64,000 nucleotides of DNA, taken from the NCBI RefSeq assembly GCF_900314595.1, contig NZ_OMVW01000002.1; one strand, written 5' to 3'. How positions within the stretch are numbered: the first letter of the stretch is position 1; every line of letters begins with the position of its first letter. Position numbers and translations under genes: made by a program. Below, piece by piece: positions 13,987-31,338 of this stretch. The notes beneath the pieces were generated by a model that saw nothing but the letters and a program-made list of their open reading frames with translations, did not search any database and had not been told where the DNA came from. This DNA is from an uncultured Dialister sp. (GTDB lineage: Bacteria > Bacillota > Negativicutes > Veillonellales > Dialisteraceae).

Positions 13987-15921
13987 ATGCATGTGATTTT
14001 GAAAAAGAACATTAAAAGACTGTGCATTTCTTTATTCCTGTCTTTAAATTTAATTGTTCCGGCTTCGGCAGCTGCTGAGGAATTTATGCCTCTTGCAGAA
14101 GTCCGGGAGGGCATGCATGGATATGCAAAAACGGTGATTCATGGCACCCGGATTGATACTTTTGACGTCGATGTACTTGGGATTATGAAAAACAAGGGCG
14201 CTGCCGGTGGTGATCTTGTGCTGGTGCGCGTTTCCGGACCTGTCATTGATGAGTCCGGCGGGATTGCTCAGGGGATGAGCGGAAGCCCTGTATATATAAA
14301 TGGCAAACTTCTTGGGGCGATAGCTTATGGTTTCCCGCAGTCAGATGGCAGGATTGGCATGGTTACTCCAATTTCAGATATGCTTCGACTGTGGACTGTA
14401 GATAATAGCAGAGACAAGAATGTTTTGAATCATGCAGATGGATTTATTCCGCTGGAAACTCCAATCATGGCCTCAGGCTATACATCAAATGGCATGGCTT
14501 TCCTGACTGGTCAAATGAAAGATTTCAATATGGTACCCTGTTCAGCTGCTTCAACAATAGCGGATGACAGTCCATTTCCTCTGGAAGCAGGTGGATCCGT
14601 TTCTGCAACTCTTGTAACCGGGGATTTAAAACTTGGGGCGGTAGGGACTGTGACTTATGTAGATGATGACCATGTGGTAGCCTTTGGTCACCCTTTTATG
14701 AATAAAGGCAGTTCGCATTATTTTATGCACAATTCCTATATATTTACTGTTATACCCAGCAGAAATATTCCATTCAAACTTGGCTCAGTCGGAGCGGAAA
14801 TTGGTACAATTACAGAAGACCGCGGAGCCGGTATAAGTGGAATTAACGGTAAAATTCCCCAATCCGTCCGGCTTCATGCCGAAGTGAATGATCTGGACAC
14901 AGGGAAAACCGGAAACCTGAATGTACGAATGATACAGAACGAAGCGTTGCTGCCAATGCTTTCTTCTACATCTGTTTATAATAATGTCAGCAATACATTG
15001 GATAGGACTGGTGAGGGCACAATTTCTTTATCCTATACTCTATTCCCTGAGAATATGAAAAAGAAGCCTTTTACCCGCTCAAATATGTACTGGTCCTCCA
15101 AAGATATTGCCGCCAGAAGTGTAGATGAATTGTACAATGTGGTAAGGATTTTGGAACAGAACCGGTTTGAGCCATATAAGCTGCGGAATATTGCCGTTCA
15201 TATGGATGTAACGCAGAATAGAAAAACTGCCAAACTTCTGGATGCATCTGCCGCTCCTACTGTGGTGAGTCCCGGTGACACTATTTATGTACGTGCCAGA
15301 CTGGAACCCTGGCGTGGAGAAATCTTTTACAAAGAGTTGTCTTTCAAAGTCCCTGAGGACCAGCCTTTGGGAAATATGATTCTCGAAGTGAGAGGTGGAG
15401 GGGTGACACCACTTCCATATCTTCTCCAGCAGCAGAAATACAACCTTACCGATGAGATTCTTGAAAGACTCCGGAATTATGAGGATTTTGATGATCTTTT
15501 TGATAAACTTGAAAATGAAGACAAGAACAATCAGATTGTTGTTGAAATTCTGGACCCCAATGTCAGTATGATATCCAAGGATGAAAGCGATGGGGCTAAA
15601 GCGGAAATTCAGGATAAGCGTCCTTCAAAATCACCGGAATATCTGAAAGGAGAGTCAAAACCTGTAAGAGGAAACGATAAGGAAGATGATTCACCAAAGA
15701 GCAGGGTAGATACGAATTATGTCATTTATGGGGACGGGCAATTTACATTCCATGTTATGACCCCTGATGATAGAGATAGAGAATTAAAAAAATTATCACA
15801 TTCTAATAAAAAGTTGTCAGCTGAAATGAAAGATAGTGAAAAGAATTCTTCATCTGGTGAATCAGAGAGAATTAAAGATTCAAAGCAAAATAATTCATCC
15901 GGTCCGATCAATAAAAATTAA
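13987..15921 (+). CDS. Secreted peptidase S55 (SpoIVB-type) domain protein with a low-complexity charged tail
   Basis: A signal peptide is present. GGIAQGMSGSPVYINGKLLGAIAYGF closely resembles the SpoIVB catalytic-serine block (GMSGSP). The C-terminal ~130 aa are K/E/D/S-rich. Confidence 0.8.
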   Translation: MHVILKKNIKRLCISLFLSLNLIVPASAAAEEFMPLAEVREGMHGYAKTVIHGTRIDTFDVDVLGIMKNKGAAGGDLVLVRVSGPVIDESGGIAQGMSGSPVYINGKLLGAIAYGFPQSDGRIGMVTPISDMLRLWTVDNSRDKNVLNHADGFIPLETPIMASGYTSNGMAFLTGQMKDFNMVPCSAASTIADDSPFPLEAGGSVSATLVTGDLKLGAVGTVTYVDDDHVVAFGHPFMNKGSSHYFMHNSYIFTVIPSRNIPFKLGSVGAEIGTITEDRGAGISGINGKIPQSVRLHAEVNDLDTGKTGNLNVRMIQNEALLPMLSSTSVYNNVSNTLDRTGEGTISLSYTLFPENMKKKPFTRSNMYWSSKDIAARSVDELYNVVRILEQNRFEPYKLRNIAVHMDVTQNRKTAKLLDASAAPTVVSPGDTIYVRARLEPWRGEIFYKELSFKVPEDQPLGNMILEVRGGGVTPLPYLLQQQKYNLTDEILERLRNYEDFDDLFDKLENEDKNNQIVVEILDPNVSMISKDESDGAKAEIQDKRPSKSPEYLKGESKPVRGNDKEDDSPKSRVDTNYVIYGDGQFTFHVMTPDDRDRELKKLSHSNKKLSAEMKDSEKNSSSGESERIKDSKQNNSSGPINKN

Positions 15922-20167: not shown

Positions 20168-20195
20168 GTGAAATGATTGTGTGAAATCATTTCAC
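20168..20195 (+). other. Intercistronic 11-bp stem-loop between tolC and tamB
   Basis: GTGAAATGATT (20168-20178) pairs with AATCATTTCAC (20185-20195). No strong U-tract follows. Confidence 0.35.
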
Positions 20196-20239
20196 CCAAT
20201 CATTTTCAAAAAACTGGGGAGATTATTTTGAAGCATAGT

Positions 20240-23200
20240 ATGAAATGGTGGATAAACACCATAGCGGCTGCCATTTTTATGGTGCTCGTCGTGATTTATC
20301 TGCTAATCCGGCCTATTATCGTGCAGAATCTGGAACCTGTACTGGCTGAAAAGCTGGGAGACAGGGTGAATGGTACCCTGTCCTGGTCTTCCATCGATCT
20401 GGACCCAAACCTGGATCTTTCTTTTGCCTATCTGGAACTGAAAGATGAAAAGGGGGAGGATGTTTTAAAGACACCCTCATTGACCGTAGGCTGGTCCATG
20501 TCTTCTCTATATAATTATCTCCTTCACGATGACGGTATCGCTACTGTTATTCGTGATGTAACTATTGAAAAGCCGGAACTTTCTCTTTCCCAGAAGGCCG
20601 ATGGAACCTGGAATATCAGTGATATCCTTAAACCTTCTGATGATTCCGACAGTGGGAAGTTTACGGGAAAGGTCATCATTACAAAGGGAAGGGCCCTGAT
20701 AAAGACAAATGAAGCTGGTCAGTTCGACTTCACAAAGGTGGAGGGCACTTTTGCCTGGGATAAGGATGCCCATATTGATGGCAGTCTAACGGGAGCCATC
20801 TTTGACAGCTCTTTTGATGGCAGGCTGAAATATACTGACAGCAATAATCTGGAAGTGAATATAAAGACAGATCCGATTCCATTGAAATCCCTGCAGCCGC
20901 TTATTGAAAAACTGCCGCAGTTTCAGAAAAAGCTGACACCGCAGGATGGGACGGGAAGCATAACGGAAGCCAAAATCTGGAAAAGCGACGGGATCGTCGT
21001 TTACCGGATGACCGGCTCTTTTAATCATGCTGCTCTTGGCTATGAAAATTACATTCTGGCTGATGGAGCGGCTTTTTTTAATATTGAAAATAACAGGGCA
21101 GATGTCACAAAAATTTCCGGAACGGTGAATGGGCAGAAAATCAGCGGTGAGGTCCATGTGGATCTTGCCGGAGAGGATACTCCTTTTTGGGGCACTGCTG
21201 CTTTATCCAAAGTTGATATAGCAAAAGTTGTCCCGGATTATGAAGCAAAAGGGATTGTGACAGGGGATCTTTCTTTCTCCGGAACAAAGGAACATCCATC
21301 TGTCAGTGGCGATATTTCCATTGTCGATGGAGCCTATGAAAATCTTTCAGTGGAAAAAGGAAAAGTATCTTTTTCCTATGATGATGGTTCCATCACTATA
21401 CCGTATCTGGAAGCAGATGCCGCAGGAGGGCATATTCTTGGTCATGGCAGCTATAGCATGGATGCCGGATTGTTTTCGATTCAGGCCTTTGTCGATCACG
21501 TTTCTATGGATCAAATCCCTGCAGGACAGGTTTTGAATGGACTTGTGAGCGGTTATTGCCAGGCAGAAGGTTCCTATAAAGATGGTATCCTCAATCTAGT
21601 CAGGGCGTCAGCCAACGGGGAAGCACTGAATTTGGATTTTAACGGTCTGTCGGCAGGAAATCTACGGGGATTTGGCAATTATCGGAATGGGAACTGGGAT
21701 GGAACCCTGAATGGTCAGAATATTTCTTATAAAGGGGTATTCCTGAATAATATAGCGGCATCCATTTCTGAAAAAGACGGTGTTATAGATATTCCTTATG
21801 CCAGCGGAATCAGCGGTAATGGCGCATTCTTTGCCACCGGTTCTTATGGCGGGGATCTGATGAATATAAATGTGGACGCATCAGATATTGATATGTCCAT
21901 GTTTACGCAACTGACCGATGAAGATATAGCCGGTATTGCATCGTTCAAAGGTAATATTTCCGGGACACTGGATCAGCCGGATGGAAATGGTACTATCAGG
22001 GCCAGAAATGGCCATTTCCGCAAAGCGGCTTTTGATACTGTTGATGGAAGTATGGCTCTTCATGATGGAAAACTGAACATTCCTTTATTAAATGTGGCTG
22101 GGGCCTCTGGAAATCATGAATTCAGCGGTACCATAGATATCCACAACTATGATATGAATATAAAAGTAAAGACTGATAAAGCAAGGATAGAAAATCTTCT
22201 ATCCATAGCTGGGCTGGATTATCCTGTGACTGGCTGGATTTCAAATGAACTTACGGTCACCGGAAAACCGGAGAACCCGAAAGTTCAGGGAGATTTTCAT
22301 GCCTGGAGCGGTTCGGTCATGGGGGAATTATTCCAGAGTATTTCCGGTCAGTATGGTTATGATAATAAAAAATTTGATTTGAAGAACTGCATGGGCTATA
22401 TGTATGATGGGGTAATCGTAATAAACGGTGGTGCAGAAGAGAACAATCTGAATCTCACTGTTTCCATGACGGATATTGATATTGAGCGTGTGCTGCCTGA
22501 CAAAGGCGTAAAAGGCAAAATTACACTTAACGGTCTCGTTAAGGGGAATTTTGACAGCCCTGATTTTGATGGTACGGCATCATCCCGGGAAATTACGATT
22601 GCCGGAAATACGATTCGGAATGTTTCTACCGGTGTCCATTATAAAGATCAGATTGTAACTGTTGATGAAGGCTCTTTCCATCAGAAGAAAGGAACTTTCC
22701 TCTGGAAGGGAAGTTACAATCTCTCCAGTGATGCATTGAATGGTTATCTGGATTTCAATGGCTGGAACATCCGGGATATTATGGCCTTCTTTGGGCGACC
22801 TGATGAATCTGTGGACGGACTTGTTGAAGGCGGTATGAAAATCAGTGGCACAAGAGATTCGCCTAATGTTAATTTCAGGGCCCATATTCTTGGTGGTCAT
22901 TTAGGAAATACTGCTCTTGGAGAAGGAAATATTGATTTCTCTTATATGAATGGGGCGCTTTCTATTCGTCAGTTTTCAATACCCGTGGGTGATGGTATCC
23001 TTGCGGCTAAGGGATCCATGAATAGCAGGGGGGATCTTGATATCCAGGCTGCAGCCCGAAATATGGATATTTCCTGGATTCCTCAAGTGATTGGAAGGAA
23101 AGATATTTCAATAGGTGGTAATCTGACTGCGGCTGTTTTCCTTTCCGGAAATAAATCAGCTCCGGAAGCAGATGTTTCCGTTGGTCTTGATCATCCGAAA

Positions 23201-24616
23201 TATGGGGATATAGCTTTTGACAGCATGTCTCTTATGGCCAATGCCTCGAATAATGTGATCACTATACAGAATGCTCTGATTTCCAGAGATGCTTACAGGG
23301 CCAGTATGAAAGGAACCATGCCGGGGAATATCTTTACCGGCAGTGAAACTGACAAGGCTGTCCCCCTGGATCTGGATATCAATCTGGACGAAGCGGATCT
23401 CAATATGCTTGCTCTTTTCTTCAAACCGGTTACGTCGGCCAGCGGTCCTATTCAGGGACATTTAAAGGTGGCCGGCAGTTATAAAGACCCGTTTCTACTT
23501 GGTGGTGTGAGCGTAAAAGATGGCGAATTTACGCTGCTGACGCTGAATGAAGTTGTGAAACCGGTCAATATGAATATGGAATTTAATGGAAATTCAGCTC
23601 ATGTAGAAAGCAGTGCTTCTATAGGTAATGGCGCTGTTACCGCTAATGGAACGGTTTCCTGGGATCATATGAAGATTTCCCAATATAATGGAGATTTCCA
23701 TATTCATCTACCTGCTCTGGATTCCCAGTATTATAAAGGGAAAGTAGATGGAGACTTTACTTTGGGCGAAATTGCGGGACTGGAGAGACCGGGAATTGAC
23801 GGGAATCTGAAGATTCAGGATGCGGTAATAGATGTTCCTTTAGCACTACTTAGTGATTCCGATACAACCCCATTGGATATACTGACACGTATCAATATCC
23901 AGGTTGGAAATAATGTGCGCCTTTATAATTCGGCTCTTTATGATCTTCTTGTGAGAGGAAATATTTCCATGATGGGGCCGCTTTCGGAACCTGTCATGGC
24001 TGGACGGGTTAATGTAGAGAAAGGTACTGTCAAAATCAATACTTCAGAATTCAAAGTAGATACGGCCAATGCCATCTGGGGGGGTGAGCCGGGGTCTTTC
24101 CTTCCTGTTGTTCACGCCAAAGCATTTACTAAAGTTGGTCATTATTCCATTACAGCTGAACTGGATGGTCTTCCCGGTGAAATGAAGACCACTTTCCACA
24201 GTGAACCGGCATTGAATGATTCCCAGATTCTTATGCTTCTTGTTTTTCACCAGAATCCGAAATCTGATAACGATGGAGCTATGGAAGGCGCACTTTTCAA
24301 TGCGGGACTCACTATGCTTTTGGGGAACGGGGTACAAGATTTTATGAAAGATAAGATAGGACTTGATCTGATTTCCATAACTTCCAGCCTGACCGATTAT
24401 TATGACAATGAAAAGGATAACAATGACAGTTATTATTATCTGAAAATCGGAAAGTATCTTTTTAATGATTTTATGCTTACTGCAACTATGGGGATGAACA
24501 ATAATGAGACAAGTTATGGCGCTCATTATGATTTGAACTCGCGAACTGGCATTTCCACGTGGTATAATAATAAACATGACAGTTATATTGGGATTGATTG
24601 GAGTTTTAAATTCTAG
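20240..24616 (+). CDS. tamB: TamB/AsmA-like translocation and assembly module protein (DUF490 C-terminus)
   Basis: A ~1460-aa protein with an N-terminal TM anchor (WWINTIAAAIFMVLVVIYLL) and a long beta-rich repetitive body. The C-terminal SEPALNDSQILMLLVF block is typical of TamB. The start is ATG 20240 or TTG 20228; the 20177 start in the ORF track is less likely. Confidence 0.85.
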   Translation: MKWWINTIAAAIFMVLVVIYLLIRPIIVQNLEPVLAEKLGDRVNGTLSWSSIDLDPNLDLSFAYLELKDEKGEDVLKTPSLTVGWSMSSLYNYLLHDDGIATVIRDVTIEKPELSLSQKADGTWNISDILKPSDDSDSGKFTGKVIITKGRALIKTNEAGQFDFTKVEGTFAWDKDAHIDGSLTGAIFDSSFDGRLKYTDSNNLEVNIKTDPIPLKSLQPLIEKLPQFQKKLTPQDGTGSITEAKIWKSDGIVVYRMTGSFNHAALGYENYILADGAAFFNIENNRADVTKISGTVNGQKISGEVHVDLAGEDTPFWGTAALSKVDIAKVVPDYEAKGIVTGDLSFSGTKEHPSVSGDISIVDGAYENLSVEKGKVSFSYDDGSITIPYLEADAAGGHILGHGSYSMDAGLFSIQAFVDHVSMDQIPAGQVLNGLVSGYCQAEGSYKDGILNLVRASANGEALNLDFNGLSAGNLRGFGNYRNGNWDGTLNGQNISYKGVFLNNIAASISEKDGVIDIPYASGISGNGAFFATGSYGGDLMNINVDASDIDMSMFTQLTDEDIAGIASFKGNISGTLDQPDGNGTIRARNGHFRKAAFDTVDGSMALHDGKLNIPLLNVAGASGNHEFSGTIDIHNYDMNIKVKTDKARIENLLSIAGLDYPVTGWISNELTVTGKPENPKVQGDFHAWSGSVMGELFQSISGQYGYDNKKFDLKNCMGYMYDGVIVINGGAEENNLNLTVSMTDIDIERVLPDKGVKGKITLNGLVKGNFDSPDFDGTASSREITIAGNTIRNVSTGVHYKDQIVTVDEGSFHQKKGTFLWKGSYNLSSDALNGYLDFNGWNIRDIMAFFGRPDESVDGLVEGGMKISGTRDSPNVNFRAHILGGHLGNTALGEGNIDFSYMNGALSIRQFSIPVGDGILAAKGSMNSRGDLDIQAAARNMDISWIPQVIGRKDISIGGNLTAAVFLSGNKSAPEADVSVGLDHPKYGDIAFDSMSLMANASNNVITIQNALISRDAYRASMKGTMPGNIFTGSETDKAVPLDLDINLDEADLNMLALFFKPVTSASGPIQGHLKVAGSYKDPFLLGGVSVKDGEFTLLTLNEVVKPVNMNMEFNGNSAHVESSASIGNGAVTANGTVSWDHMKISQYNGDFHIHLPALDSQYYKGKVDGDFTLGEIAGLERPGIDGNLKIQDAVIDVPLALLSDSDTTPLDILTRINIQVGNNVRLYNSALYDLLVRGNISMMGPLSEPVMAGRVNVEKGTVKINTSEFKVDTANAIWGGEPGSFLPVVHAKAFTKVGHYSITAELDGLPGEMKTTFHSEPALNDSQILMLLVFHQNPKSDNDGAMEGALFNAGLTMLLGNGVQDFMKDKIGLDLISITSSLTDYYDNEKDNNDSYYYLKIGKYLFNDFMLTATMGMNNNETSYGAHYDLNSRTGISTWYNNKHDSYIGIDWSFKF

Positions 24617-24625
24617 GAGAGGTAC

Positions 24626-25243
24626 ATGCTGGAAGAATATATGGCTTCTCTTTCTGCAATTCATAAGCTTGGCAGGAAGGAAGAAGCCGACCTGTGGAAA
24701 CAGTATAAAAAGTCTGGGCTGATTGAAGCAAGACAGTCTCTTATTGAACATTACCAGCCTCTTGTCTTCGGTGAGGCAATGAAATATTCTCTTCAAGAAG
24801 CAGTGACACTGGACCTGATTCAGGAGGGGACTGTGGGATTGATGGAAGCTGTCGAAAGGTATAATCCTGATACTGGAGTGGCTTTTTCCCTGTATGCTCT
24901 TCATCGGGTTCGTGGGAGAATGATTGATTTTCTGCAGAAGAATGGCAGAGAACTCCTGCTGGAGGATGGTCAGGAAGAACAAATCTTCTTTTCCAAAGCT
25001 GGGCCGGATACGGCTTTTGAAACAGCTGATAGAAATTCGCTCCATATGAAAGTCAGTCAGGCTGTTGACCGCCTTCCTGTGAGAGAACAAGATGTAATTA
25101 GGAGTGTCTATCTCAAGGAACAGACTGCCCAGGAAACTGCGGATGCTTTGGATGTCAGCACAGCCTATGTTTACAGGTTGGAAAAAAGAGGAATTAGGCG
25201 GCTGAGAGGGATGCTATCCCGGGTGATTCATGACAGAAAATGA
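24626..25243 (+). CDS. Sigma-70 family RNA polymerase sigma factor (small, group-3/FliA-like regions 2 and 4)
   Basis: Region 2 is visible (LIEHYQPLVFGEAMKY, DLIQEGTVGLMEAVERYNP, AFSLYALHRVRGRMIDFL). Region 4 contains a helix-turn-helix (QTAQETADALDVSTAYVYRLEKRGIRRLR). An AGGAGAGG RBS sits 10 nt after the tamB stop. Confidence 0.85.
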   Translation: MLEEYMASLSAIHKLGRKEEADLWKQYKKSGLIEARQSLIEHYQPLVFGEAMKYSLQEAVTLDLIQEGTVGLMEAVERYNPDTGVAFSLYALHRVRGRMIDFLQKNGRELLLEDGQEEQIFFSKAGPDTAFETADRNSLHMKVSQAVDRLPVREQDVIRSVYLKEQTAQETADALDVSTAYVYRLEKRGIRRLRGMLSRVIHDRK

Positions 25244-25410
25244 TTCTACATTGTGTATTCATTTGAATTTAAAAGATAATTGATGAAAATAGAAGAATTA
25301 TGTGGTTAACGACTGTTCATTTATACTTCTCTTTTTCTGATTATGTAATAATAAAGAAATCACTATGCTCTTTTTGATACGGGCAAAATTCCTTATTATT
25401 GGGAGGTATC

Positions 25411-25968
25411 ATGTCAGGAGATAAGATCAAACGGGTCCGGGCAGTAAGAAAATGGCTTGAAAAAGCCGAAAATTCTTATTCCAGCCACAGGGAAATAACA
25501 GGTGAAATAAACTTGATCATGGCACAGGCGGAAATGCAGCGGCTTCATGAGACAAGAAAAGAGTCCTCGACCAGACGCTGGGGCTTGAGGATTGTTGCTA
25601 TGATTGCTGCCTTTGGCATATTTCTGGGAATCAATGCGTTCTGGAATTTACTTAATTCTCCTGTTGAGCCACAACAGAAACCTGTCCAGATTGTTATTAA
25701 TGAAGTGACTTCGGCAGAGCCATCTGAGACAATATCTAATTTAGATAAAACAGAGGTGGTCTTGAAGGAGAAAGACAGCTCAAATGTTTATTCTCGCGAG
25801 GTATCGTCTGAAAACTTACGGGCGGCAGCTTATTCTGAGCCTGTACAGATACGGACAAAGGAGCAGGCTGCAGTTCCATCCCGCTATGTACCTGCACCAG
25901 CCTTATCAGATAAAGAAATTCAAAGTGTTGTTGGAGAGGCAGGAAGGGCCCTACGTGGTCAGGCTTGA
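25411..25968 (+). CDS. Single-pass membrane protein of unknown function (candidate anti-sigma factor)
   Basis: A ~58-aa charged helical N-terminus is followed by one TM helix (LRIVAMIAAFGIFLGINAFW) and a ~110-aa low-complexity extracytoplasmic tail. A GGGAGG RBS precedes the ATG. There is no zinc anti-sigma motif, so the role is inferred from position only. Confidence 0.45.
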   Translation: MSGDKIKRVRAVRKWLEKAENSYSSHREITGEINLIMAQAEMQRLHETRKESSTRRWGLRIVAMIAAFGIFLGINAFWNLLNSPVEPQQKPVQIVINEVTSAEPSETISNLDKTEVVLKEKDSSNVYSREVSSENLRAAAYSEPVQIRTKEQAAVPSRYVPAPALSDKEIQSVVGEAGRALRGQA

Positions 25969-26026: not shown

Positions 26027-28072
26027 ATGATTACTTTTGAAAACAAAAAGGCTCTTATCCTGGCAGCAATTTTTACAGCGGTTAGTGGTGCAGGAGCATT
26101 GGCCGATAGTCCGGATATGACATCAGGGCAGGGAAACATGTCTCAGAGTGATATGATCAGCGTAAAGAACGGTCAGGCTGTTGGAACATCCGGTCAGATT
26201 TCTGATGAAACTGAAGCTAAAGTGGAAGATTCTTCACTTCAGGTTCAGCAGTCCCAGCAGACCGTGGCTGTCGGAGATGCATCTTTATATTTAACAAAAG
26301 CTGATGACGAAGCTATTGAAGCACAAGTAGGAAAGACGATTACTTCTGTTGATTTCTCAGGAATTCCCGAATCAGTTAAACCGAAACTTGCTCCATTGCT
26401 TCAGAGCAAGCCTGGTATAAAGATTAGTGAAGAAGGGATTCGCAATGATGTGGCATCTCTTGGATCTACCGGGGTCTTCGCCCAGATTACTCCCGCATTC
26501 AATACTGTTAAGGAAGGTGTGGATGTCATATACCAGCTCGTTTCCAATCCGGTTGTTCATGATGTCGACTTTTCAGGGAATACCGTTTTTACCGGAGATT
26601 ATCTGAAGTCTATCATGAATATTCCACAGGACAGCGTGCTTAATTTTGTTCTTGTTAACCAAAAGTTAAAGGAAATTGAAAATCTCTATCTTAAGCAGGG
26701 ATATATGCTGGTTTCCATTCCTAATGTTCAGGTTTCTCCTGATGGGATTCTTCATGTCAACATTTCGGAAGGTACCGTCGAAGATATAGTCCTTGTAGGT
26801 AATGAGAAGACAAAAGATAAGGTCATTACACGTGAACTAAAACTCAAAAAAGGACAGCCATTTAATAAGTTCCTTGCCAGCAGGAGTATGGAAAGATTAT
26901 ACAACCTGGGTTATTTTGAAGATGTAAATATGAAACTTCTCCCAGGTAAGGAGAATGAGCATAATGTCATTATTGAAATTGACGTTATCGAACAAAAAAC
27001 AGGTGTTGTAACGGTTGGTGCAGGTTACTCCGATTCTGATGGTACCGTTGGTATTATTGAACTTGGCGATACAAACTTCCGTGGAACTGGCGATAAAGTT
27101 AATTTCCATTGGGAATTTGGCGGTGCCGGTGATGGCAAGAACTATACGATTTCTTACACCAGACCCTGGATCAATTCCAATGGCGACTCCCTGGGTGCAT
27201 CCATTTTCAACCGTATCTACACCTACGATGATTATGATGCCAAAGGTCATGAAATTGCTGAATACGACAAGAGAAGAAAAGGCTGGAATCTTACCTGGGG
27301 TCATGTAAGCAGCGAATACCGTACCAACTATTTCAATTTTGAATCATCCAAGGAATCCTATGATGATCATGATGGATTTGAATGGGGCGGAGCAGCGGAA
27401 GGCAAATTTAATAATGCAGAAAAGTATGGCTATACTGCAACAACGGATTCTGATGGTAATACTGTTTCTGCTCGTGAAAATATGAAAAAAGCCTGGCGGA
27501 AGGCTATTGATGATAACTTCGGAACCACAAACAGCTTTACTTTCACGCATGTATTTGATAATCGTGATAATTACTTCAACGCGAGCCGTGGCAGACGTAT
27601 TTCTTTCGCCCTCCAGTATGGCGGCCATGGACTTGGCGGGGATTATGATTTCTATAAATTCACCACAGAAGGCCGCTTCTATAAGGGGCTGGGCAATGGA
27701 CACATCCTTGCGCTGCGCTTGATGGGTGGCTATATAGATGGAGACGTGGCATATGGCAACCTCTTTGATCTTGGTGGCTCCAATACACTTCGCGGCTATG
27801 AAGATGATCAGTTCAAAGGCAAGAAGATGTATGCGGCTACGCTGGAATATCGTTTCCCAATTGCCAAGAAAGTTCAGGGTGTACTCTTTACCGATGTCGG
27901 CAGTACCTGGGATATTGATGATGGTAAGATTCCGTGGTATGATGACGATGATTCTATAAATTGGTCCGTAGGTGTCGGCCTTCGTCTCCAGACCCCAATC
28001 GGACCTATTCGCCTTGATTATGGTCATGGTGATCAGAACAAGTTCCATTTTAGCTTTGGTACACAGTTCTGA
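26027..28072 (+). CDS. bamA: Outer-membrane protein assembly factor BamA (Omp85 family)
   Basis: A signal peptide and an S/Q-rich linker are followed by about three POTRA-like modules (aa ~105-335). The Omp85 barrel carries RGY (NTLRGYEDDQF), and the C-terminal beta-signal ends FSFGTQF. Confidence 0.92.
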   Translation: MITFENKKALILAAIFTAVSGAGALADSPDMTSGQGNMSQSDMISVKNGQAVGTSGQISDETEAKVEDSSLQVQQSQQTVAVGDASLYLTKADDEAIEAQVGKTITSVDFSGIPESVKPKLAPLLQSKPGIKISEEGIRNDVASLGSTGVFAQITPAFNTVKEGVDVIYQLVSNPVVHDVDFSGNTVFTGDYLKSIMNIPQDSVLNFVLVNQKLKEIENLYLKQGYMLVSIPNVQVSPDGILHVNISEGTVEDIVLVGNEKTKDKVITRELKLKKGQPFNKFLASRSMERLYNLGYFEDVNMKLLPGKENEHNVIIEIDVIEQKTGVVTVGAGYSDSDGTVGIIELGDTNFRGTGDKVNFHWEFGGAGDGKNYTISYTRPWINSNGDSLGASIFNRIYTYDDYDAKGHEIAEYDKRRKGWNLTWGHVSSEYRTNYFNFESSKESYDDHDGFEWGGAAEGKFNNAEKYGYTATTDSDGNTVSARENMKKAWRKAIDDNFGTTNSFTFTHVFDNRDNYFNASRGRRISFALQYGGHGLGGDYDFYKFTTEGRFYKGLGNGHILALRLMGGYIDGDVAYGNLFDLGGSNTLRGYEDDQFKGKKMYAATLEYRFPIAKKVQGVLFTDVGSTWDIDDGKIPWYDDDDSINWSVGVGLRLQTPIGPIRLDYGHGDQNKFHFSFGTQF

Positions 28073-28088
28073 TTGAGAGAGGAGGAAC

Positions 28089-29378
28089 ATGATTTCTTCC
28101 TTGAAAAGGAGTATGCTTGGGGCAGGCCTATTTCTGATGACGGGAGTTTTTTCTGGAAGTGTTAGTGCTGCCTCTATTCAGAATGTGGATGTCCATCTTT
28201 CCGTAACTGATGGAAATGTTCCGCCAGTTGTGGCAAAACGGATTGTATCAAGTATATCTTCCATCGGAAATCGTATACTTATCGGAAAAGAGGAAAATCT
28301 TTTTCGCCTGAACAGTGCCGAATACAATAAAGTGATTGCTGATATCATCAATCGTGTTGTTATTGGTTATGTAGTTTCAGACCTTTCCGTGGATTATGGT
28401 AGCAATACGTCTATCAATGTGTCCCTTCAACCGGTTGGCAGAATGATTCGACATGTGAATACAGAAATCGATTATGGAAATCTTTCAGGAGATGCAGAAC
28501 GGTATATTAAAGCGGAAACTGCGGAAGTACCGGTTCTTATGAATAATCTTTTGATTGGGCTTCCTGTTGATTCCGTAGGATGGGCGGAAAGTGTTTCCCA
28601 GTCGGCAGGTCGGGATCTTCTTAAGCAGATCCTTCCGGAATTTCAGGCTAATTTTGAGGTTCTCTCAGGTGAAGATACGAAAGTAAAGATTTACTTGATT
28701 CCTCAAGGAAATATTATCAGGTCCACCAGGCTTACACTGGAAAAATCTACCGTACCTCGGCTCCTTATGCTGAGGGCGGTGGATGAAACGGAAACTGCTC
28801 TTAAGAATCTGGAAGGTCTTCCCGTCGGCTTTGTAAGCAGGAATCAGGGAAAAATTGCTTCTGAACTCAATGGAATCCTGAGCAAAGATTTCTTTGTTGA
28901 GAAATATGGCATTGAAACAAGGTCAAGGCTGATTCCGGGAGAAAAAACGGAACTTGTAGTTGATGCCCTGACAGACCACTGGATTATCCGGACGGAAGCC
29001 TGGCTTGATGCCGGCCGTGACGGAGACCGCAATACTACGATTGAGGGCATGCTCGGTCATTTTGTGGGTGGAAACAATGTGGTATTCGGAGAGGCCCGTT
29101 TTTATCCCGGACCGGTGGACTGGGATGTATATGGGGGATTTTACCATCATTTCCGGGGTCTTATGGATCTCGGCTACAAATATAATTTTATCGAGAATAG
29201 TAATCATGTCTTCGGAATAGTTCCCATTGGGAGTAAATTTTCGCTCCGTTATGAGCGGGATTTTAAAGATGACGAGAATGAATTTGGTCTTTCCTATAAA
29301 GTTCATAATTATATGACTCTTGAATATGTGTATAATGATGAAGATGGAAAATGGCTGCGACTTGTAGCCAATTTATAA
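28089..29378 (+). CDS. Uncharacterised secreted protein: three to four ~90-aa tandem modules plus a beta-strand-rich C-terminus (putative OM protein)
   Basis: A signal peptide with SVSA-AS cleavage context is present. Modules open at I30-Q31, I120-R121, I210-R211 and I300-R301, an exact 90-residue period. The C-terminal ~130 aa consist of short amphipathic strands separated by D/N/G turns (FSLRYERDF, EFGLSYKV, MTLEYVYN, KWLRLVANL). A GAGAGGAGG RBS sits 16 nt after the bamA stop. Confidence 0.7.
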   Translation: MISSLKRSMLGAGLFLMTGVFSGSVSAASIQNVDVHLSVTDGNVPPVVAKRIVSSISSIGNRILIGKEENLFRLNSAEYNKVIADIINRVVIGYVVSDLSVDYGSNTSINVSLQPVGRMIRHVNTEIDYGNLSGDAERYIKAETAEVPVLMNNLLIGLPVDSVGWAESVSQSAGRDLLKQILPEFQANFEVLSGEDTKVKIYLIPQGNIIRSTRLTLEKSTVPRLLMLRAVDETETALKNLEGLPVGFVSRNQGKIASELNGILSKDFFVEKYGIETRSRLIPGEKTELVVDALTDHWIIRTEAWLDAGRDGDRNTTIEGMLGHFVGGNNVVFGEARFYPGPVDWDVYGGFYHHFRGLMDLGYKYNFIENSNHVFGIVPIGSKFSLRYERDFKDDENEFGLSYKVHNYMTLEYVYNDEDGKWLRLVANL

Positions 29379-29394
29379 AGGAGTGATTTAAATC

Positions 29395-29910
29395 ATGATG
29401 ACAACTCTTGGAAACAAGAAGAATGTTAAGATTTTCTCTTTCGCCCTGGCGGGAGTATTTATTGCATCCGTAGCTGTGATGGCGGTTGTATCCATGGGGG
29501 ATACGGCCAGTGCTGCGCCAACTACGGATATTGGCGTAGTTGATCAGAGAGAAGTGATTTCCTCCAATGGACAGCTTGCCATTGATTATCAGACCAAAAT
29601 GAAGCAGACTGCTGAAGAAATGCAGAAAGATTTTGATGCAAAATCTGCAGGCATGTCCGATGCGGATAAGGAAAAGCTTTTTGCTGATATGCAGCAGCAG
29701 TTTAACCAGAAGCGGACTGCTATTGAAAAGGATATGGAAGATCAGGTAACTGGGGCAGTAAAATCTGTAGCCTCCAAAAAGGGTCTTTCTCTGGTAGTTG
29801 ATAAATCTGCAGTCATTTATGGTGGTACCGATATTACCAGAGAAGTGTCTGAAGCGTTGAATAAATCTGTTTCCTCTGCACAGTCTGTGGCAGCTTCCCA
29901 GAGTAAGTAA
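29395..29910 (+). CDS. skp: Skp/OmpH-family periplasmic chaperone
   Basis: A signal peptide is followed by the OmpH-type start TDIGVVDQREV and then a helical K/E/Q-rich arm. The protein is 171 aa. Confidence 0.8.
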   Translation: MMTTLGNKKNVKIFSFALAGVFIASVAVMAVVSMGDTASAAPTTDIGVVDQREVISSNGQLAIDYQTKMKQTAEEMQKDFDAKSAGMSDADKEKLFADMQQQFNQKRTAIEKDMEDQVTGAVKSVASKKGLSLVVDKSAVIYGGTDITREVSEALNKSVSSAQSVAASQSK

Positions 29911-29924
29911 CAGGAGTGGTTACC

Positions 29925-30887
29925 ATGCGTTCCGGCTCTTTTGCCCGAATAGCTGCAACTGCGATGATTGTTTTTACTTTTGTCTTTTCCGGCTGTGGAC
30001 CCAGGAAAGAGGAAACTCCTCCGCCTGCTGTCCAATATGGTGTGGCAGACCTGGAGACAATGGTGAAAGCACATCCCCAGTACAGCAGCTACTTCAAATT
30101 GCAAACTGAATATAACCAGTTACTGGAACAATACCGGAATGAACGGAATCGATTGATTCAGGCCGCCTCTCAGCAGAAAAGAATCAATGCGGCTTTGTCC
30201 GATCAGACACGGCGTCTGGCAGCAGAAAATGAACTGAAAGCCAGGGTAAAAGCTAAAGAAGATGAATTGAATGATGGTCTTAAGAAGCTTTACTCTGATA
30301 TCTCTAAAAATCATGCTGCATCTTCCTCTTTAAATGTGGAAACGCTGACACCGGAAGAAAGGGCGGAAATGGCCAATCTTCAAATGAAGCTTACGATTCT
30401 TGGTGTAACAGGGGAAGAAAAAGAAAAGATTAAGGATAGACTTCATTTCCTGATGGAGCTTCGGGCGTCCCGTGAAAAAGCTGATATGACTGGCTGGACA
30501 GCAGACGAGGTTAAGCGGATGAAAAATGCTAAGGAGAAGGCTGAATCTGAACTTACCGAATTCTCTCGTGTTACTGCCGAAGACATTAAAAAGCGGCTGG
30601 CATCTGACAATAAAGCCCATTTGGACCCAATTGAACAGAGCTTTGATGCGGGTAATCAGGAATGGAATAGGGCCTGGCAGTCCCGTATCGATTCCAAACA
30701 GAAACAGATGGCCGATTTGAAAAAACAGATTATGGCTGATATAGAGAAGGAGGCGGCGCGTGTCGCTTCTGATAAGCAGCTTGCTATGATTTTTGTAAAG
30801 TATAAAGCTAATATTAACGCGACCGATGTAACCGGAGATATGGTTAATCGGATTGTAAATATAAAGCAGGAGGAAATAAATGGATAA
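29925..30887 (+). CDS. OmpH/Skp-like coiled-coil lipoprotein (long paralogue)
   Basis: A lipobox is present (FVFSGCG). The OmpH-like start YGVADLETMV is followed by ~250 aa of coiled-coil-type sequence. Confidence 0.6.
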   Translation: MRSGSFARIAATAMIVFTFVFSGCGPRKEETPPPAVQYGVADLETMVKAHPQYSSYFKLQTEYNQLLEQYRNERNRLIQAASQQKRINAALSDQTRRLAAENELKARVKAKEDELNDGLKKLYSDISKNHAASSSLNVETLTPEERAEMANLQMKLTILGVTGEEKEKIKDRLHFLMELRASREKADMTGWTADEVKRMKNAKEKAESELTEFSRVTAEDIKKRLASDNKAHLDPIEQSFDAGNQEWNRAWQSRIDSKQKQMADLKKQIMADIEKEAARVASDKQLAMIFVKYKANINATDVTGDMVNRIVNIKQEEING

Positions 30888-31338
30888 GGCTGTGTTGAAA
30901 AAGATAGCCTGCGTGGGATTACTTGCTTTTGCAGCTGTATTTTCCGGCTGTGGCAGTGAACATAAAGTAGCAGTTATTGATTATCAGAAAATTGAATCCC
31001 AATCTCCTAAAATCAAGGCAATACAGAAGGAGATTACTGACAAGGATAAAGAAATCAGTGCCCGTCTGGCAGAGGATTCAAAAAAGGGTCTTTCTGATGA
31101 GGAAATGCAGAAAAAAGTACAATCTGCACAACAGGAAAGAATGATTTTCATTCAGAGCAAGCAGAAACAAATTGAATCAATGATTCAGTCCCATTGCAGC
31201 TCCATTGCAAAAGAAAAGAATCTTGGAATCGTTATGAATAAAATGGCTGTACCGAGTGGGGCAGTCGATATTACAGATGAAGTTCTGGCTAAAATGGATG
31301 GAGGATCATCCAAAGCAGCTTCTTCAGCAACCAAGTGA
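30880..31338 (+). CDS. OmpH/Skp-like lipoprotein (short paralogue)
   Basis: A lipobox is present (AVFSGCG). The OmpH-like start KVAVIDYQKI is followed by a helical arm. The gene overlaps the upstream stop by 8 nt. Confidence 0.7.
   Translation: MDKAVLKKIACVGLLAFAAVFSGCGSEHKVAVIDYQKIESQSPKIKAIQKEITDKDKEISARLAEDSKKGLSDEEMQKKVQSAQQERMIFIQSKQKQIESMIQSHCSSIAKEKNLGIVMNKMAVPSGAVDITDEVLAKMDGGSSKAASSATK

What the first reader, a model, noticed from the sequence alone, without database searches (positions are those of the whole stretch)
28089..29378. Uncharacterised protein directly after bamA with an exact 90-residue tandem periodicity and an OMP-like C-terminus: a candidate new BAM/TAM-associated component
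After a signal peptide, segments begin at I30-Q31 (IQNVDVHL), I120-R121 (IRHVNTEI), I210-R211 (IRSTRLTL) and I300-R301 (IRTEAWL), exactly 90 aa apart. By eye, the first three segments alternate strand-helix-helix-strand-strand, which is reminiscent of POTRA modules.

The last ~130 aa are short amphipathic strands with D/N/G turns, ending LRLVANL. That tail alternates hydrophobic residues but has no terminal Phe. The ORF starts 16 nt after the bamA stop and is followed by three skp genes.

Diderm Firmicutes lack BamB-E and TamA, so this is a plausible missing partner of BamA or TamB. I cannot assign it to a known family.
Basis: partly seen in the sequence, partly recalled or inferred. Interest (0 to 1): 0.7.

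Follow-up and report, generated by a model that had tools for sequence, protein, structure and literature searches.

The report
SonA ortholog beside bamA in Dialister
The gene after bamA encodes a predicted outer-membrane protein with three POTRA-like periplasmic modules on a small 10-stranded barrel; it is the Dialister ortholog of SonA, a family named in 2026 whose function is still unknown.

Summary
ORF 28089-29378 (+) encodes a 429-aa secreted protein that starts 16 nt after bamA. It has three modules in 90-residue register. Family profiles show them to be true repeats (hhalign 96-98 %, E 3e-13 to 7e-9). A C-terminal domain of ten short amphipathic strands follows.

AlphaFold2 (pLDDT 85) gives three beta-alpha-alpha-beta-beta modules plus a 10-stranded sheet. 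Foldseek's best PDB matches are BamA, TamA, Toc75, CdiB and FhaC (E 1e-10).

It is not new. A profile search retrieves Acetonema longum F7NM22 (E 1.6e-73; 27 % identity over 404 residues). Beskrovnaya et al. (Nat Commun 2026, PMC13018214) named this protein SonA. They described it as a 10-stranded barrel with three POTRA domains in a conserved sonB-bamA-sonA-skp1 cluster. The A. longum locus is colinear with the window gene for gene.

The bamA-sonA-skp order holds wherever the contig reaches: 41 of 43 Dialister-like loci (two begin at sonA) and all six very distant homologs checked.

No Pfam or NCBIfam model covers the family. Profiles detect no sequence similarity to BamA's POTRA domains or barrel.

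Function is untested in vivo. The most likely role is a membrane-anchored periplasmic docking arm in BamA/TamB-dependent envelope biogenesis. This is a rediscovery, of moderate interest.

The parts
28089..29378 (+). sonA ortholog, 429-aa precursor (stop codon 29376-29378)
   Evidence: ORF. The profile hit to A. longum F7NM22 (P0145) has E 1.6e-73. BLASTP gives 27 % identity over 404 aa, E 5e-60. The locus is colinear with A. longum.
28080..28085 (+). Shine-Dalgarno AGGAGG, 3 nt before the ATG, inside the 16-nt bamA-sonA spacer
   Evidence: Sequence read. The N-termini of homologs align from M1.
28089..28169 (+). Sec-type signal peptide, residues 1-27 (K6 R7, hydrophobic core, V-S-A then A28)
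   Evidence: Read from the sequence. A27 is invariant in the family alignment. pLDDT is below 50 for residues 1-26. There is no twin-arginine and no Cys, so it is neither a Tat substrate nor a lipoprotein.
28176..28445 (+). POTRA-like module 1, residues 30-119
   Evidence: DSSP gives E32-39, H46-64, H76-90, E94-102, E106-115. hhalign to module 2 gives 98 %, E 2.8e-13.
28446..28715 (+). POTRA-like module 2, residues 120-209, carrying the family hallmark G-L-P-V-D-S-V-G-W (157-165; W165 invariant)
   Evidence: Modelled alone it has pLDDT 90. Its best PDB neighbours are FtsQ, TamA, Toc75 and BamA POTRA domains, with TM up to 0.58.
28716..28979 (+). POTRA-like module 3, residues 210-297, with a second G-L-P-V motif (243-246; P245 invariant)
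   Evidence: hhalign to modules 1 and 2 gives about 96 %, E 7e-9 and 3e-9.
28980..29375 (+). C-terminal 10-stranded beta-barrel domain, residues 298-429, ending W-L-R-L-V-A-N-L
   Evidence: Ten DSSP strands with pLDDT mostly 85-94. Connectors are 3-7 residues and the strands are amphipathic. The family C-terminal motif is W-L-R-L-I-G-N-[LF].
26027..28072 (+). bamA (681 aa), immediately upstream
   Evidence: Pfam Omp85 2.6e-48 and POTRA 9.5e-29; TIGR03303 6.4e-82.
25399..25968 (+). sonB ortholog (probable ATG at 25411): a bitopic membrane protein without Cys
   Evidence: 25 % identity to A. longum F7NM24, E 2e-19.
29395..29910 (+). skp (OmpH family), 16 nt downstream of sonA
   Evidence: Pfam OmpH 1.1e-11.
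29916..30887 (+). 323-aa lipobox-bearing coiled-coil protein with a Skp-like C-terminus
   Evidence: Translation. It has no Pfam hit. It is homologous to the A. longum 319-aa gene, whose product has a faint OmpH hit.
30880..31338 (+). skp (OmpH family)
   Evidence: Pfam OmpH 1.8e-10.
20177..24616 (+). tamB (1479 aa), in the same cluster
   Evidence: Pfam TamB 4.2e-33.
24626..25243 (+). sigma-70 family factor, conserved between tamB and sonB
   Evidence: Pfam Sigma70_r2 and r4. It keeps the same position in A. longum and in distant loci.

Best explanation
The ORF is the Dialister ortholog of SonA.

Shown or directly predicted:
- It is exported by a Sec signal peptide.
- Its C-terminal 132 residues are predicted to form a small 10-stranded beta-barrel with very short loops.
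- Residues 30-297 form three tandem, mutually homologous POTRA-like beta-alpha-alpha-beta-beta modules.
- The gene is co-oriented and tightly packed with bamA and the skp genes.

Inferred mechanism: the barrel is only a membrane anchor. It is too narrow, and its loops too short, for a pore or a laterally opening insertase. The functional part is the rigid three-module arm reaching into the periplasm. As in other POTRA proteins, the arm would bind partners by beta-strand augmentation.

The most likely role is a transient, BamA-proximal docking platform. It would hold Skp-delivered unfolded outer-membrane proteins, or the end of TamB, next to BamA. This would stand in for the BamB-E and TamA functions that diderm Firmicutes lack.

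My confidence by layer: SonA orthology ~0.95; architecture ~0.85; role in BamA/TamB-linked envelope biogenesis ~0.6; the specific BamA-side docking mechanism ~0.35.
For: Orthology:
- The A1 profile hits P0145, which is UniRef F7NM22 of A. longum, at E 1.6e-73 over nearly the full length.
- BLASTP gives 27 % identity over 404 aa, E 5e-60.
- The A. longum locus runs TamB, sigma, SonB, BamA, SonA, Skp, a 319-aa gene, Skp, LpxD. That is the same order as the window.

Architecture:
- AF2 gives pLDDT 85 and pTM 0.69, with three b-a-a-b-b modules plus 10 strands.
- Foldseek's top 50 are all Omp85-superfamily or POTRA structures: BamA, TamA, Toc75, CdiB, FhaC and BamA POTRA1-4. E ranges from 1e-10 to 6e-5.
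- Module 2 modelled alone (pLDDT 90) finds mostly POTRA proteins. TM is 0.50-0.58 to TamA and BamA POTRAs.
- The internal repeat is supported at E 3e-13.

Linkage:
- The order bamA-sonA-skp-...-lpxD holds in every Dialister-like locus the contig covers.
- It also holds in 6 of 6 distant homologs at about 18-22 % identity.
- Gaps are 16, 16 and 5 nt, then overlaps of 8 and 4 nt. No intergenic terminator-like site was found.

Literature (PMC13018214):
- SonA is co-expressed with BamA.
- SonA is trypsin-protected after incubation with liposomes.
Against: - Anti-BamA co-IP with cross-linking in A. longum did not recover SonA.
- V. parvula and A. fermentans have BamA and TamB but no SonA or SonB, so the protein is dispensable in some lineages.
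- There is no sequence-level similarity to POTRA or Omp85. Pfam gives nothing at E <= 10. hhalign against the clade's own BamA gives probability <= 2 %. A PDB sequence search finds only designed barrels.
- Single-module Foldseek E-values (0.17-1) are not significant on their own.
- Barrel closure (strand 1 pairing with strand 10) could not be inspected.
- No in-vivo localisation or phenotype exists for any family member.
Confidence: 0.55

Rival explanations
1. SonA is the outer-membrane receptor of TamB, a functional analogue of TamA. Its POTRA arm would capture the C-terminal end of TamB by beta-augmentation. The small barrel would fix the TamB lipid or protein bridge to the outer membrane.
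For: - Diderm Firmicutes have TamB but no TamA.
- SonA has three POTRA-like modules, like TamA.
- The best single-module structural fits are to P. aeruginosa TamA, with TM 0.52-0.58.
- tamB lies in the same cluster in the window, in A. longum and in L046, L048, L050 and L051.
- The SonA paper itself raises possible interactions with TamB.
Against: - The invariant neighbour is bamA, not tamB. In L047 and L049 no tamB lies within 7 kb upstream, while bamA-sonA-skp persists.
- V. parvula keeps TamB without SonA.
- A 10-stranded barrel lacks the Omp85 lateral gate that TamA uses.
Confidence: 0.25
2. SonA is an autonomous 'pioneer' outer-membrane protein. It self-inserts into a naive membrane and helps seed outer-membrane formation. 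This is the germination model proposed for A. longum.
For: - SonA becomes trypsin-protected with liposomes at 30 C.
- SonA is up-regulated with BamA during germination.
Against: - The presence of SonA does not correlate with sporulation ability.
- The family is conserved across the Dialister, Allisonella and Veillonellaceae relatives recovered here. From my own knowledge, Dialister is non-sporulating.
- Spontaneous insertion into liposomes is common for small barrels and says little about in-vivo role.
- This model gives the three conserved POTRA-like modules no function.
Confidence: 0.1
3. SonA is an outer-membrane protein with an unrelated job, such as a structural or tethering protein or a receptor. 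It merely rides in the envelope gene cluster. The POTRA resemblance would be convergent or over-read.
For: - There is no sequence similarity to POTRA or Omp85.
- The single-module Foldseek E-values are weak.
- The BamA co-IP was negative.
- SonA evolves faster than its neighbours. Between Dialister and A. longum, SonA is 27 % identical, BamA 44 % and LpxD 42 %.
Against: - Position directly between bamA and skp is conserved down to about 18 % identity.
- All top whole-model structural matches are Omp85-family proteins, at E 1e-10.
- The topology is exactly b-a-a-b-b, three times.
Confidence: 0.1

Closest known systems
SonA (Acetonema longum F7NM22; Beskrovnaya et al., Nat Commun 2026, PMC13018214)
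   Same: - Full-length homology: 27 % identity, profile E 1.6e-73.
- Similar size: 429 vs 426 aa.
- Both have a Sec signal.
- Both are predicted as three POTRA-like modules plus a 10-stranded barrel.
- Both sit between bamA and skp1, with sonB upstream of bamA.
   Different: - The host is a different family (Dialister, Veillonellaceae; non-sporulating from my own knowledge).
- Dialister is not named in the paper's main text.
- Nothing has been tested experimentally for this ortholog.
TamA (Omp85 superfamily, Proteobacteria)
   Same: - Three N-terminal periplasmic POTRA modules precede a C-terminal OM barrel.
- It is genetically associated with tamB.
- It gives the best single-module structural fit, TM 0.52-0.58.
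   Different: - TamA has a 16-stranded Omp85 barrel (PF01103) with a lateral gate.
- The barrel here has 10 strands and no Omp85 sequence signal.
- The modules here are about 90 aa with a G-L-P-V loop insertion. From my own knowledge a canonical POTRA is about 75-80 aa.
BamA (Omp85 insertase)
   Same: - It is the top whole-model Foldseek match, E 1e-10.
- It shares the POTRA-then-barrel order and the same operon.
   Different: - No profile-profile similarity to the clade's own BamA, probability <= 2 %.
- The barrel here is a 10-stranded minimal barrel with 3-7-residue loops.
- No L6-type long loop is present.
BamB-E accessory lipoproteins
   Same: The role is hypothesised to be analogous: a periplasmic partner of BamA encoded in an OM-biogenesis context.
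   Different: - These are lipoproteins with unrelated folds.
- SonA has no Cys or lipobox and is an integral barrel protein.
- No stable complex with BamA was seen in A. longum.

Membership tests
SonA family (Beskrovnaya et al. 2026) | Sequence homology to A. longum F7NM22 (paper's criterion: e <= 1e-30 and >= 25 % identity) | tested here: met
   BLASTP gives 27 % identity over 404 aa, E 5e-60. The profile search gives E 1.6e-73 against a library of 1.84 billion proteins.
SonA family (Beskrovnaya et al. 2026) | Gene lies between bamA and skp1, with sonB upstream of bamA | tested here: met
   The window order is sonB-like, bamA, target, skp. The A. longum locus L044 is colinear. The 43 related loci agree wherever the contig reaches.
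SonA family (Beskrovnaya et al. 2026) | Predicted ten-stranded beta-barrel preceded by three b-a-a-b-b POTRA domains | tested here: met
   The AF2 model has pLDDT 85. DSSP shows 3 x (E-H-H-E-E) followed by 10 strands.
SonA family (Beskrovnaya et al. 2026) | Spontaneous insertion into liposomes; co-expression with BamA | not testable with these tools
   These are experimental properties reported only for the A. longum protein.
POTRA domain (PF07244 / PF08479 and relatives) | beta1-alpha1-alpha2-beta2-beta3 topology, in tandem, N-terminal to an OM barrel | tested here: met
   DSSP on the full model and on the module-2 model.
POTRA domain (PF07244 / PF08479 and relatives) | Structural superposition on solved POTRA domains | tested here: inconclusive
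   The whole model matches BamA and TamA at E 1e-10, and BamA POTRA1-4 (6j09, 2qdf) at E about 5e-5. For a single module, 23 of the top 31 hits are POTRA proteins with TM 0.35-0.58, but E is 0.17 or higher.
POTRA domain (PF07244 / PF08479 and relatives) | Match to a Pfam POTRA profile, or profile-profile match to BamA POTRAs | tested here: not met
   No POTRA family appears at E <= 10 for the whole protein or any module. hhalign against the clade's BamA gives probability <= 0.5 %.
Omp85 superfamily (BamA/TamA/TpsB) | 16-stranded barrel matching PF01103 (Omp85/bacterial surface antigen domain) | tested here: not met
   No PF01103 hit. The model has 10 strands. hhalign of the barrel segment against the BamA barrel gives probability 2 %.
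BAM accessory lipoproteins (BamB-E) | Lipoprotein signal peptide with lipobox Cys; homology to BamB, C, D or E | tested here: not met
   The protein has no Cys. It has no NCBIfam or Pfam hit.
Physical BAM/TAM component | Stable or cross-linkable complex with BamA or TamB | not testable with these tools
   The only data come from A. longum. Anti-BamA co-IP did not recover SonA. TamB was not tested.

The most novel reading that the evidence does not exclude
SonA is a genuine, previously missing subunit of envelope biogenesis in diderm Firmicutes and allied Terrabacteria. It would be a minimal POTRA-arm protein on a 10-stranded anchor that docks TamB, Skp-client complexes or both to BamA. In that role it would replace TamA and BamB-E.

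Its range would be wider than the 36 Negativicutes surveyed so far. The family has 272 clusters at 50 % identity. Members at 18-22 % identity, from MAGs labelled Bacillota, 'bacterium' and Armatimonadota, keep the same bamA-sonA-skp-lpxD order.
Probability: 0.35. Interest if true: 0.7.

Novelty: already known. Interest (0 to 1): 0.35.

Why it matters
How diderm Firmicutes assemble an outer membrane without BamB-E, TamA or the Lol pathway is an open question. It bears on the evolution of the monoderm/diderm divide.

SonA is currently the best candidate for a lineage-specific partner of BamA or TamB, but it has no in-vivo function yet. This window adds four points:
- The family is well conserved in Dialister, which from my own knowledge is a non-sporulating member of the human microbiota.
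- The three modules are true internal repeats.
- No public domain model covers the family.
- Its linkage to bamA persists at very low sequence identity.

These points help annotation and experimental design. They do not amount to a new discovery.

Tried and rejected
- Pfam and NCBIfam scans of the whole protein and of each module, down to E 10 and E 1: nothing relevant.
- hhalign of each SonA segment and of the full family against a 21-sequence BamA alignment built from the fetched loci: no similarity, probability <= 2 %.
- Profile search of PDB sequences: only weak hits to de novo designed transmembrane barrels. This fits barrel-like composition but is not homology.
- The genome-contig scan returned only Dialister, Allisonella and Veillonellaceae relatives. 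The peptide patterns it chose were Dialister-specific, so it could not give a class-wide phylogenetic profile.
- A second homologous-protein search with the diverse alignment A3 again returned mainly Dialister clusters and added no taxonomic names.
- The paper's supplementary tables are not held, so I could not check whether Dialister is among its 36 species.
- Database names for homologs are 'acylphosphatase' (Selenomonadaceae MAGs) and 'Tat pathway signal sequence' (Dialister). I rejected both. The topology is b-a-a-b-b, not the ferredoxin-like b-a-b-b-a-b. No acylphosphatase model hits, and there is no twin-arginine.
- A fourth repeat starting at I300: rejected.
- Promoter and terminator scans were at chance level and gave only the negative result of no intergenic terminator.

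Full report
**1. Observation**

The ORF at 28089-29378 (+) encodes 429 aa. The upstream gene, 26027-28072, is bamA. It hits Pfam Omp85 at 2.6e-48 and POTRA at 9.5e-29, and TIGR03303 at 6.4e-82. BamA ends ...FGTQF. The spacer is 16 nt and contains AGGAGG three bases before the ATG.

The protein begins with a Sec-type signal peptide: K6 R7, a hydrophobic core, then V-S-A followed by A28. It has no Cys and no twin-arginine.

In the single sequence the ungapped self-score at offset 90 is about 3 sd above shuffles. It is also the best offset within residues 30-299.

I built family profiles from 89 full-length representatives. With these, the three modules match one another in register:
- module 1 vs 2: 98.0 %, E 2.8e-13, 91 aligned columns
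- module 1 vs 3: 95.8 %, E 6.9e-9
- module 2 vs 3: 96.1 %, E 3.3e-9

The region from I300 is unrelated to the modules (E >= 0.085). So the 90-residue periodicity is real for three modules, and the fourth 'segment' is the start of a different domain.

**2. Structure**

AlphaFold2 with a 24-sequence alignment gave mean pLDDT 85.1 and pTM 0.69. DSSP shows three beta-alpha-alpha-beta-beta units:
- E32-39, H46-64, H76-90, E94-102, E106-115
- E122-128, H134-155, H165-181, E185-192, E196-205
- E212-220, H224-239, H246-265, E276-282, E286-294

Ten strands follow, between residues 298 and 428.

The strand connectors are only 3-7 residues long. Hydrophobic alternation in the strands exceeds shuffles: 2.44 vs 1.59 +/- 0.37, reached by 34 of 2000 shuffles.

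Foldseek against the PDB returned only Omp85-family or POTRA structures in its top 50: BamA, TamA, Toc75, CdiB, FhaC and BamA POTRA1-4. E ranged from 1e-10 to 6e-5. Global TM-scores were low, as expected for flexible multidomain chains and a barrel of a different size.

Module 2 modelled alone had pLDDT 90. It found mainly POTRA proteins: FtsQ, TamA, Toc75, YaeT and Anabaena Omp85. TM was up to 0.58 with rmsd 3.4 A to P. aeruginosa TamA. The E-values were 0.17 or higher, so they are not significant on their own.

Sequence methods see nothing. There is no Pfam POTRA or Omp85 hit even at E 10. There is no NCBIfam model. hhalign against the clade's own BamA gives probability <= 2 %. A PDB sequence search finds only designed barrels.

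I therefore call the modules POTRA-like by fold and topology, not by sequence.

**3. Identity**

A profile search of 1.84 billion representative proteins found 272 family members at E <= 1e-3. Nearly all full-length ones are 410-450 aa.

One of them, P0145, is UniRef100_F7NM22 of Acetonema longum DSM 6540. The profile E-value is 1.6e-73. Pairwise BLASTP gives 27 % identity over 404 residues, E 5e-60.

F7NM22 is the protein named SonA by Beskrovnaya et al. (Nat Commun 2026, PMC13018214). They describe:
- co-expression with BamA;
- insertion into liposomes in vitro.

The A. longum locus (L044) runs TamB, sigma-70, a 186-aa gene (SonB, F7NM24), BamA, SonA, Skp, a 319-aa gene, Skp, LpxD. The window has the same genes in the same order. 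The window's 189-aa and 323-aa ORFs are homologous to the A. longum 186-aa and 319-aa genes, at E 2e-19 and 2e-24.

The window protein is therefore the positional and sequence ortholog of SonA. Its closest relatives are Dialister: 90 % identity to a Dialister MAG and 69-71 % to D. succinatiphilus and others.

**4. Conservation of context**

Among the 43 Dialister, Allisonella and Veillonellaceae loci, the order TamB, sigma, SonB, BamA, SonA, Skp, lipo-Skp, Skp, LpxD is kept wherever the contig reaches.

I also checked six very distant family members, at about 18-22 % identity to the query. They come from MAGs labelled Firmicutes/Bacillota, 'bacterium' and Armatimonadota. All six have the gene directly downstream of an Omp85/POTRA gene. 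An OmpH gene follows, with LpxD or other lipid-A (Lpx) genes downstream.

tamB is adjacent in four of the six, but is absent within 7 kb upstream in L047 and L049. So the tightest linkage is to bamA.

The 'Armatimonadota' locus has the full Negativicute-type cluster, including a SpoIVB-type peptidase S55 gene. I therefore do not take the label as proof that the family exists outside Bacillota.

**5. Mechanism**

The following are shown or predicted directly from sequence: Sec export, the three homologous modules, the 10-strand amphipathic C-terminal domain, and the tight operon-like packing. Gaps are 16, 16 and 5 nt, then overlaps. No intergenic terminator-like site was found.

The rest is inferred. 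The barrel has minimal loops and would serve as an anchor. The three-module arm projects into the periplasm and would bind partners by beta-augmentation, as POTRA domains do in BamA, TamA and FtsQ (established knowledge of those families).

The family's most conserved positions are G93, W165 and P245, together with the G-L-P-V motifs in the alpha1-alpha2 loops of modules 2 and 3. These are candidate interaction sites.

I favour a transient BamA-proximal docking role, for Skp-client complexes, TamB or both. Against a stable BAM subunit stand two facts. The anti-BamA co-IP in A. longum was negative. Two Negativicutes that retain BamA and TamB have lost SonA and SonB.

The TamB-receptor model is the main rival. 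The published 'self-inserting pioneer for germination' idea does not explain conservation in non-sporulating lineages such as Dialister, or the POTRA arm. The authors themselves note that SonA presence does not correlate with sporulation.

**6. Verdict**

However, the family, its predicted fold and its synteny were published in February 2026. This is a rediscovery of SonA in Dialister, and the function remains open.

What this analysis adds beyond the paper:
- a statistical demonstration that the three modules are internal repeats;
- the lack of any sequence-level link to POTRA or Omp85, and the absence of Pfam or NCBIfam coverage;
- family size and the C-terminal motif W-L-R-L-I-G-N-[L/F];
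- synteny that persists at about 20 % identity;
- the observation that SonB orthologs mostly lack any cysteine.

Noticed in passing
window 25399-25968 (+), probable start ATG 25411: This is the SonB ortholog (25 % identity to A. longum F7NM24, E 2e-19). It has no cysteine, so it cannot be a lipoprotein. About 55 basic N-terminal residues carry a conserved W-L-x-K-A-E ... G-E-L-N-L-x-x-A-Q-A-E motif. One TM helix follows (about residues 59-77), then a low-complexity tail. In A. longum the only Cys lies in the middle of the TM helix at position 74. By a rough motif-based count, 24 of 38 Dialister-like orthologs have no Cys. The published 'OM lipoprotein' label therefore does not generalise. An N-in bitopic cytoplasmic-membrane protein looks more likely.
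   Followed up: partly
window 24626-25243 (+) and the next gene, 25399-25968: A sigma-70 family gene (regions 2 and 4) sits between tamB and sonB. It keeps this position in the window, in A. longum and in distant loci L046, L048, L050 and L051. A sigma factor followed by a small single-pass membrane protein resembles a sigma/anti-sigma pair dedicated to the envelope cluster. This idea is untested.
   Followed up: partly
window 29916-30887 (+): The 'second skp' is a 323-aa protein with a lipobox (F-S-G-C, residues 23-26), a long coiled-coil region and a Skp-like C-terminus. It has no Pfam OmpH hit. Its A. longum ortholog (27 % identity, E 2e-24) has only a faint OmpH hit. A lipoprotein in this cluster is notable because the A. 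longum paper reports that the Lol pathway is absent.
   Followed up: partly
window 13987-15921 (+): A 644-aa protein with a SpoIVB-type peptidase S55 domain (E 4e-13) lies at the head of the envelope cluster. The order is S55, MlaE, MlaF, MlaD, TolC, TamB. From my own knowledge Dialister is non-sporulating. An S55-domain protein (F7NM31) was one of only two proteins that co-eluted with BamA in A. longum. S55 genes also sit directly upstream of tamB in L050 and L051.
   Followed up: no
P0276-P0278 (Selenomonadaceae MAGs); P0007, P0014, P0057 (Dialister): Public records name SonA homologs 'acylphosphatase' or 'Tat pathway signal sequence'. Neither name is supported. No acylphosphatase model hits, the topology is b-a-a-b-b, and there is no twin-arginine motif.
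   Followed up: yes
L007, L011, L012, L021, L036-L038, L043: Some contigs carry a Dialister-type LPS/outer-membrane cluster, with SonA 52-69 % identical to the window. They are filed in genome bins named Agathobacter, Ruminococcus bromii, Paludibacteraceae, Fusicatenibacter, Oscillospiraceae, Lachnospiraceae, Acutalibacteraceae and Erysipelotrichaceae. This is most likely mis-binning.
   Followed up: no
L044 vs window; L002 vs window: SonA diverges faster than its neighbours. Between Dialister and A. longum, SonA is 27 % identical, BamA 44 % and LpxD 42 %. Within Dialister, SonA is 71 %, BamA 82 % and Skp 89 %.
   Followed up: no
L050 (GCA_031459815.1) and P0195 cluster: SonA family members occur in several MAGs labelled Armatimonadota. 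The cluster order there is identical to the Negativicute one: S55, TamB, sigma, SonB-like, BamA, SonA, Skp, a 364-aa gene, Skp, LpxD, LpxC, FabZ, LpxA, LpxI, LpxB. Either the family reaches beyond Bacillota or these MAGs are misclassified.
   Followed up: partly
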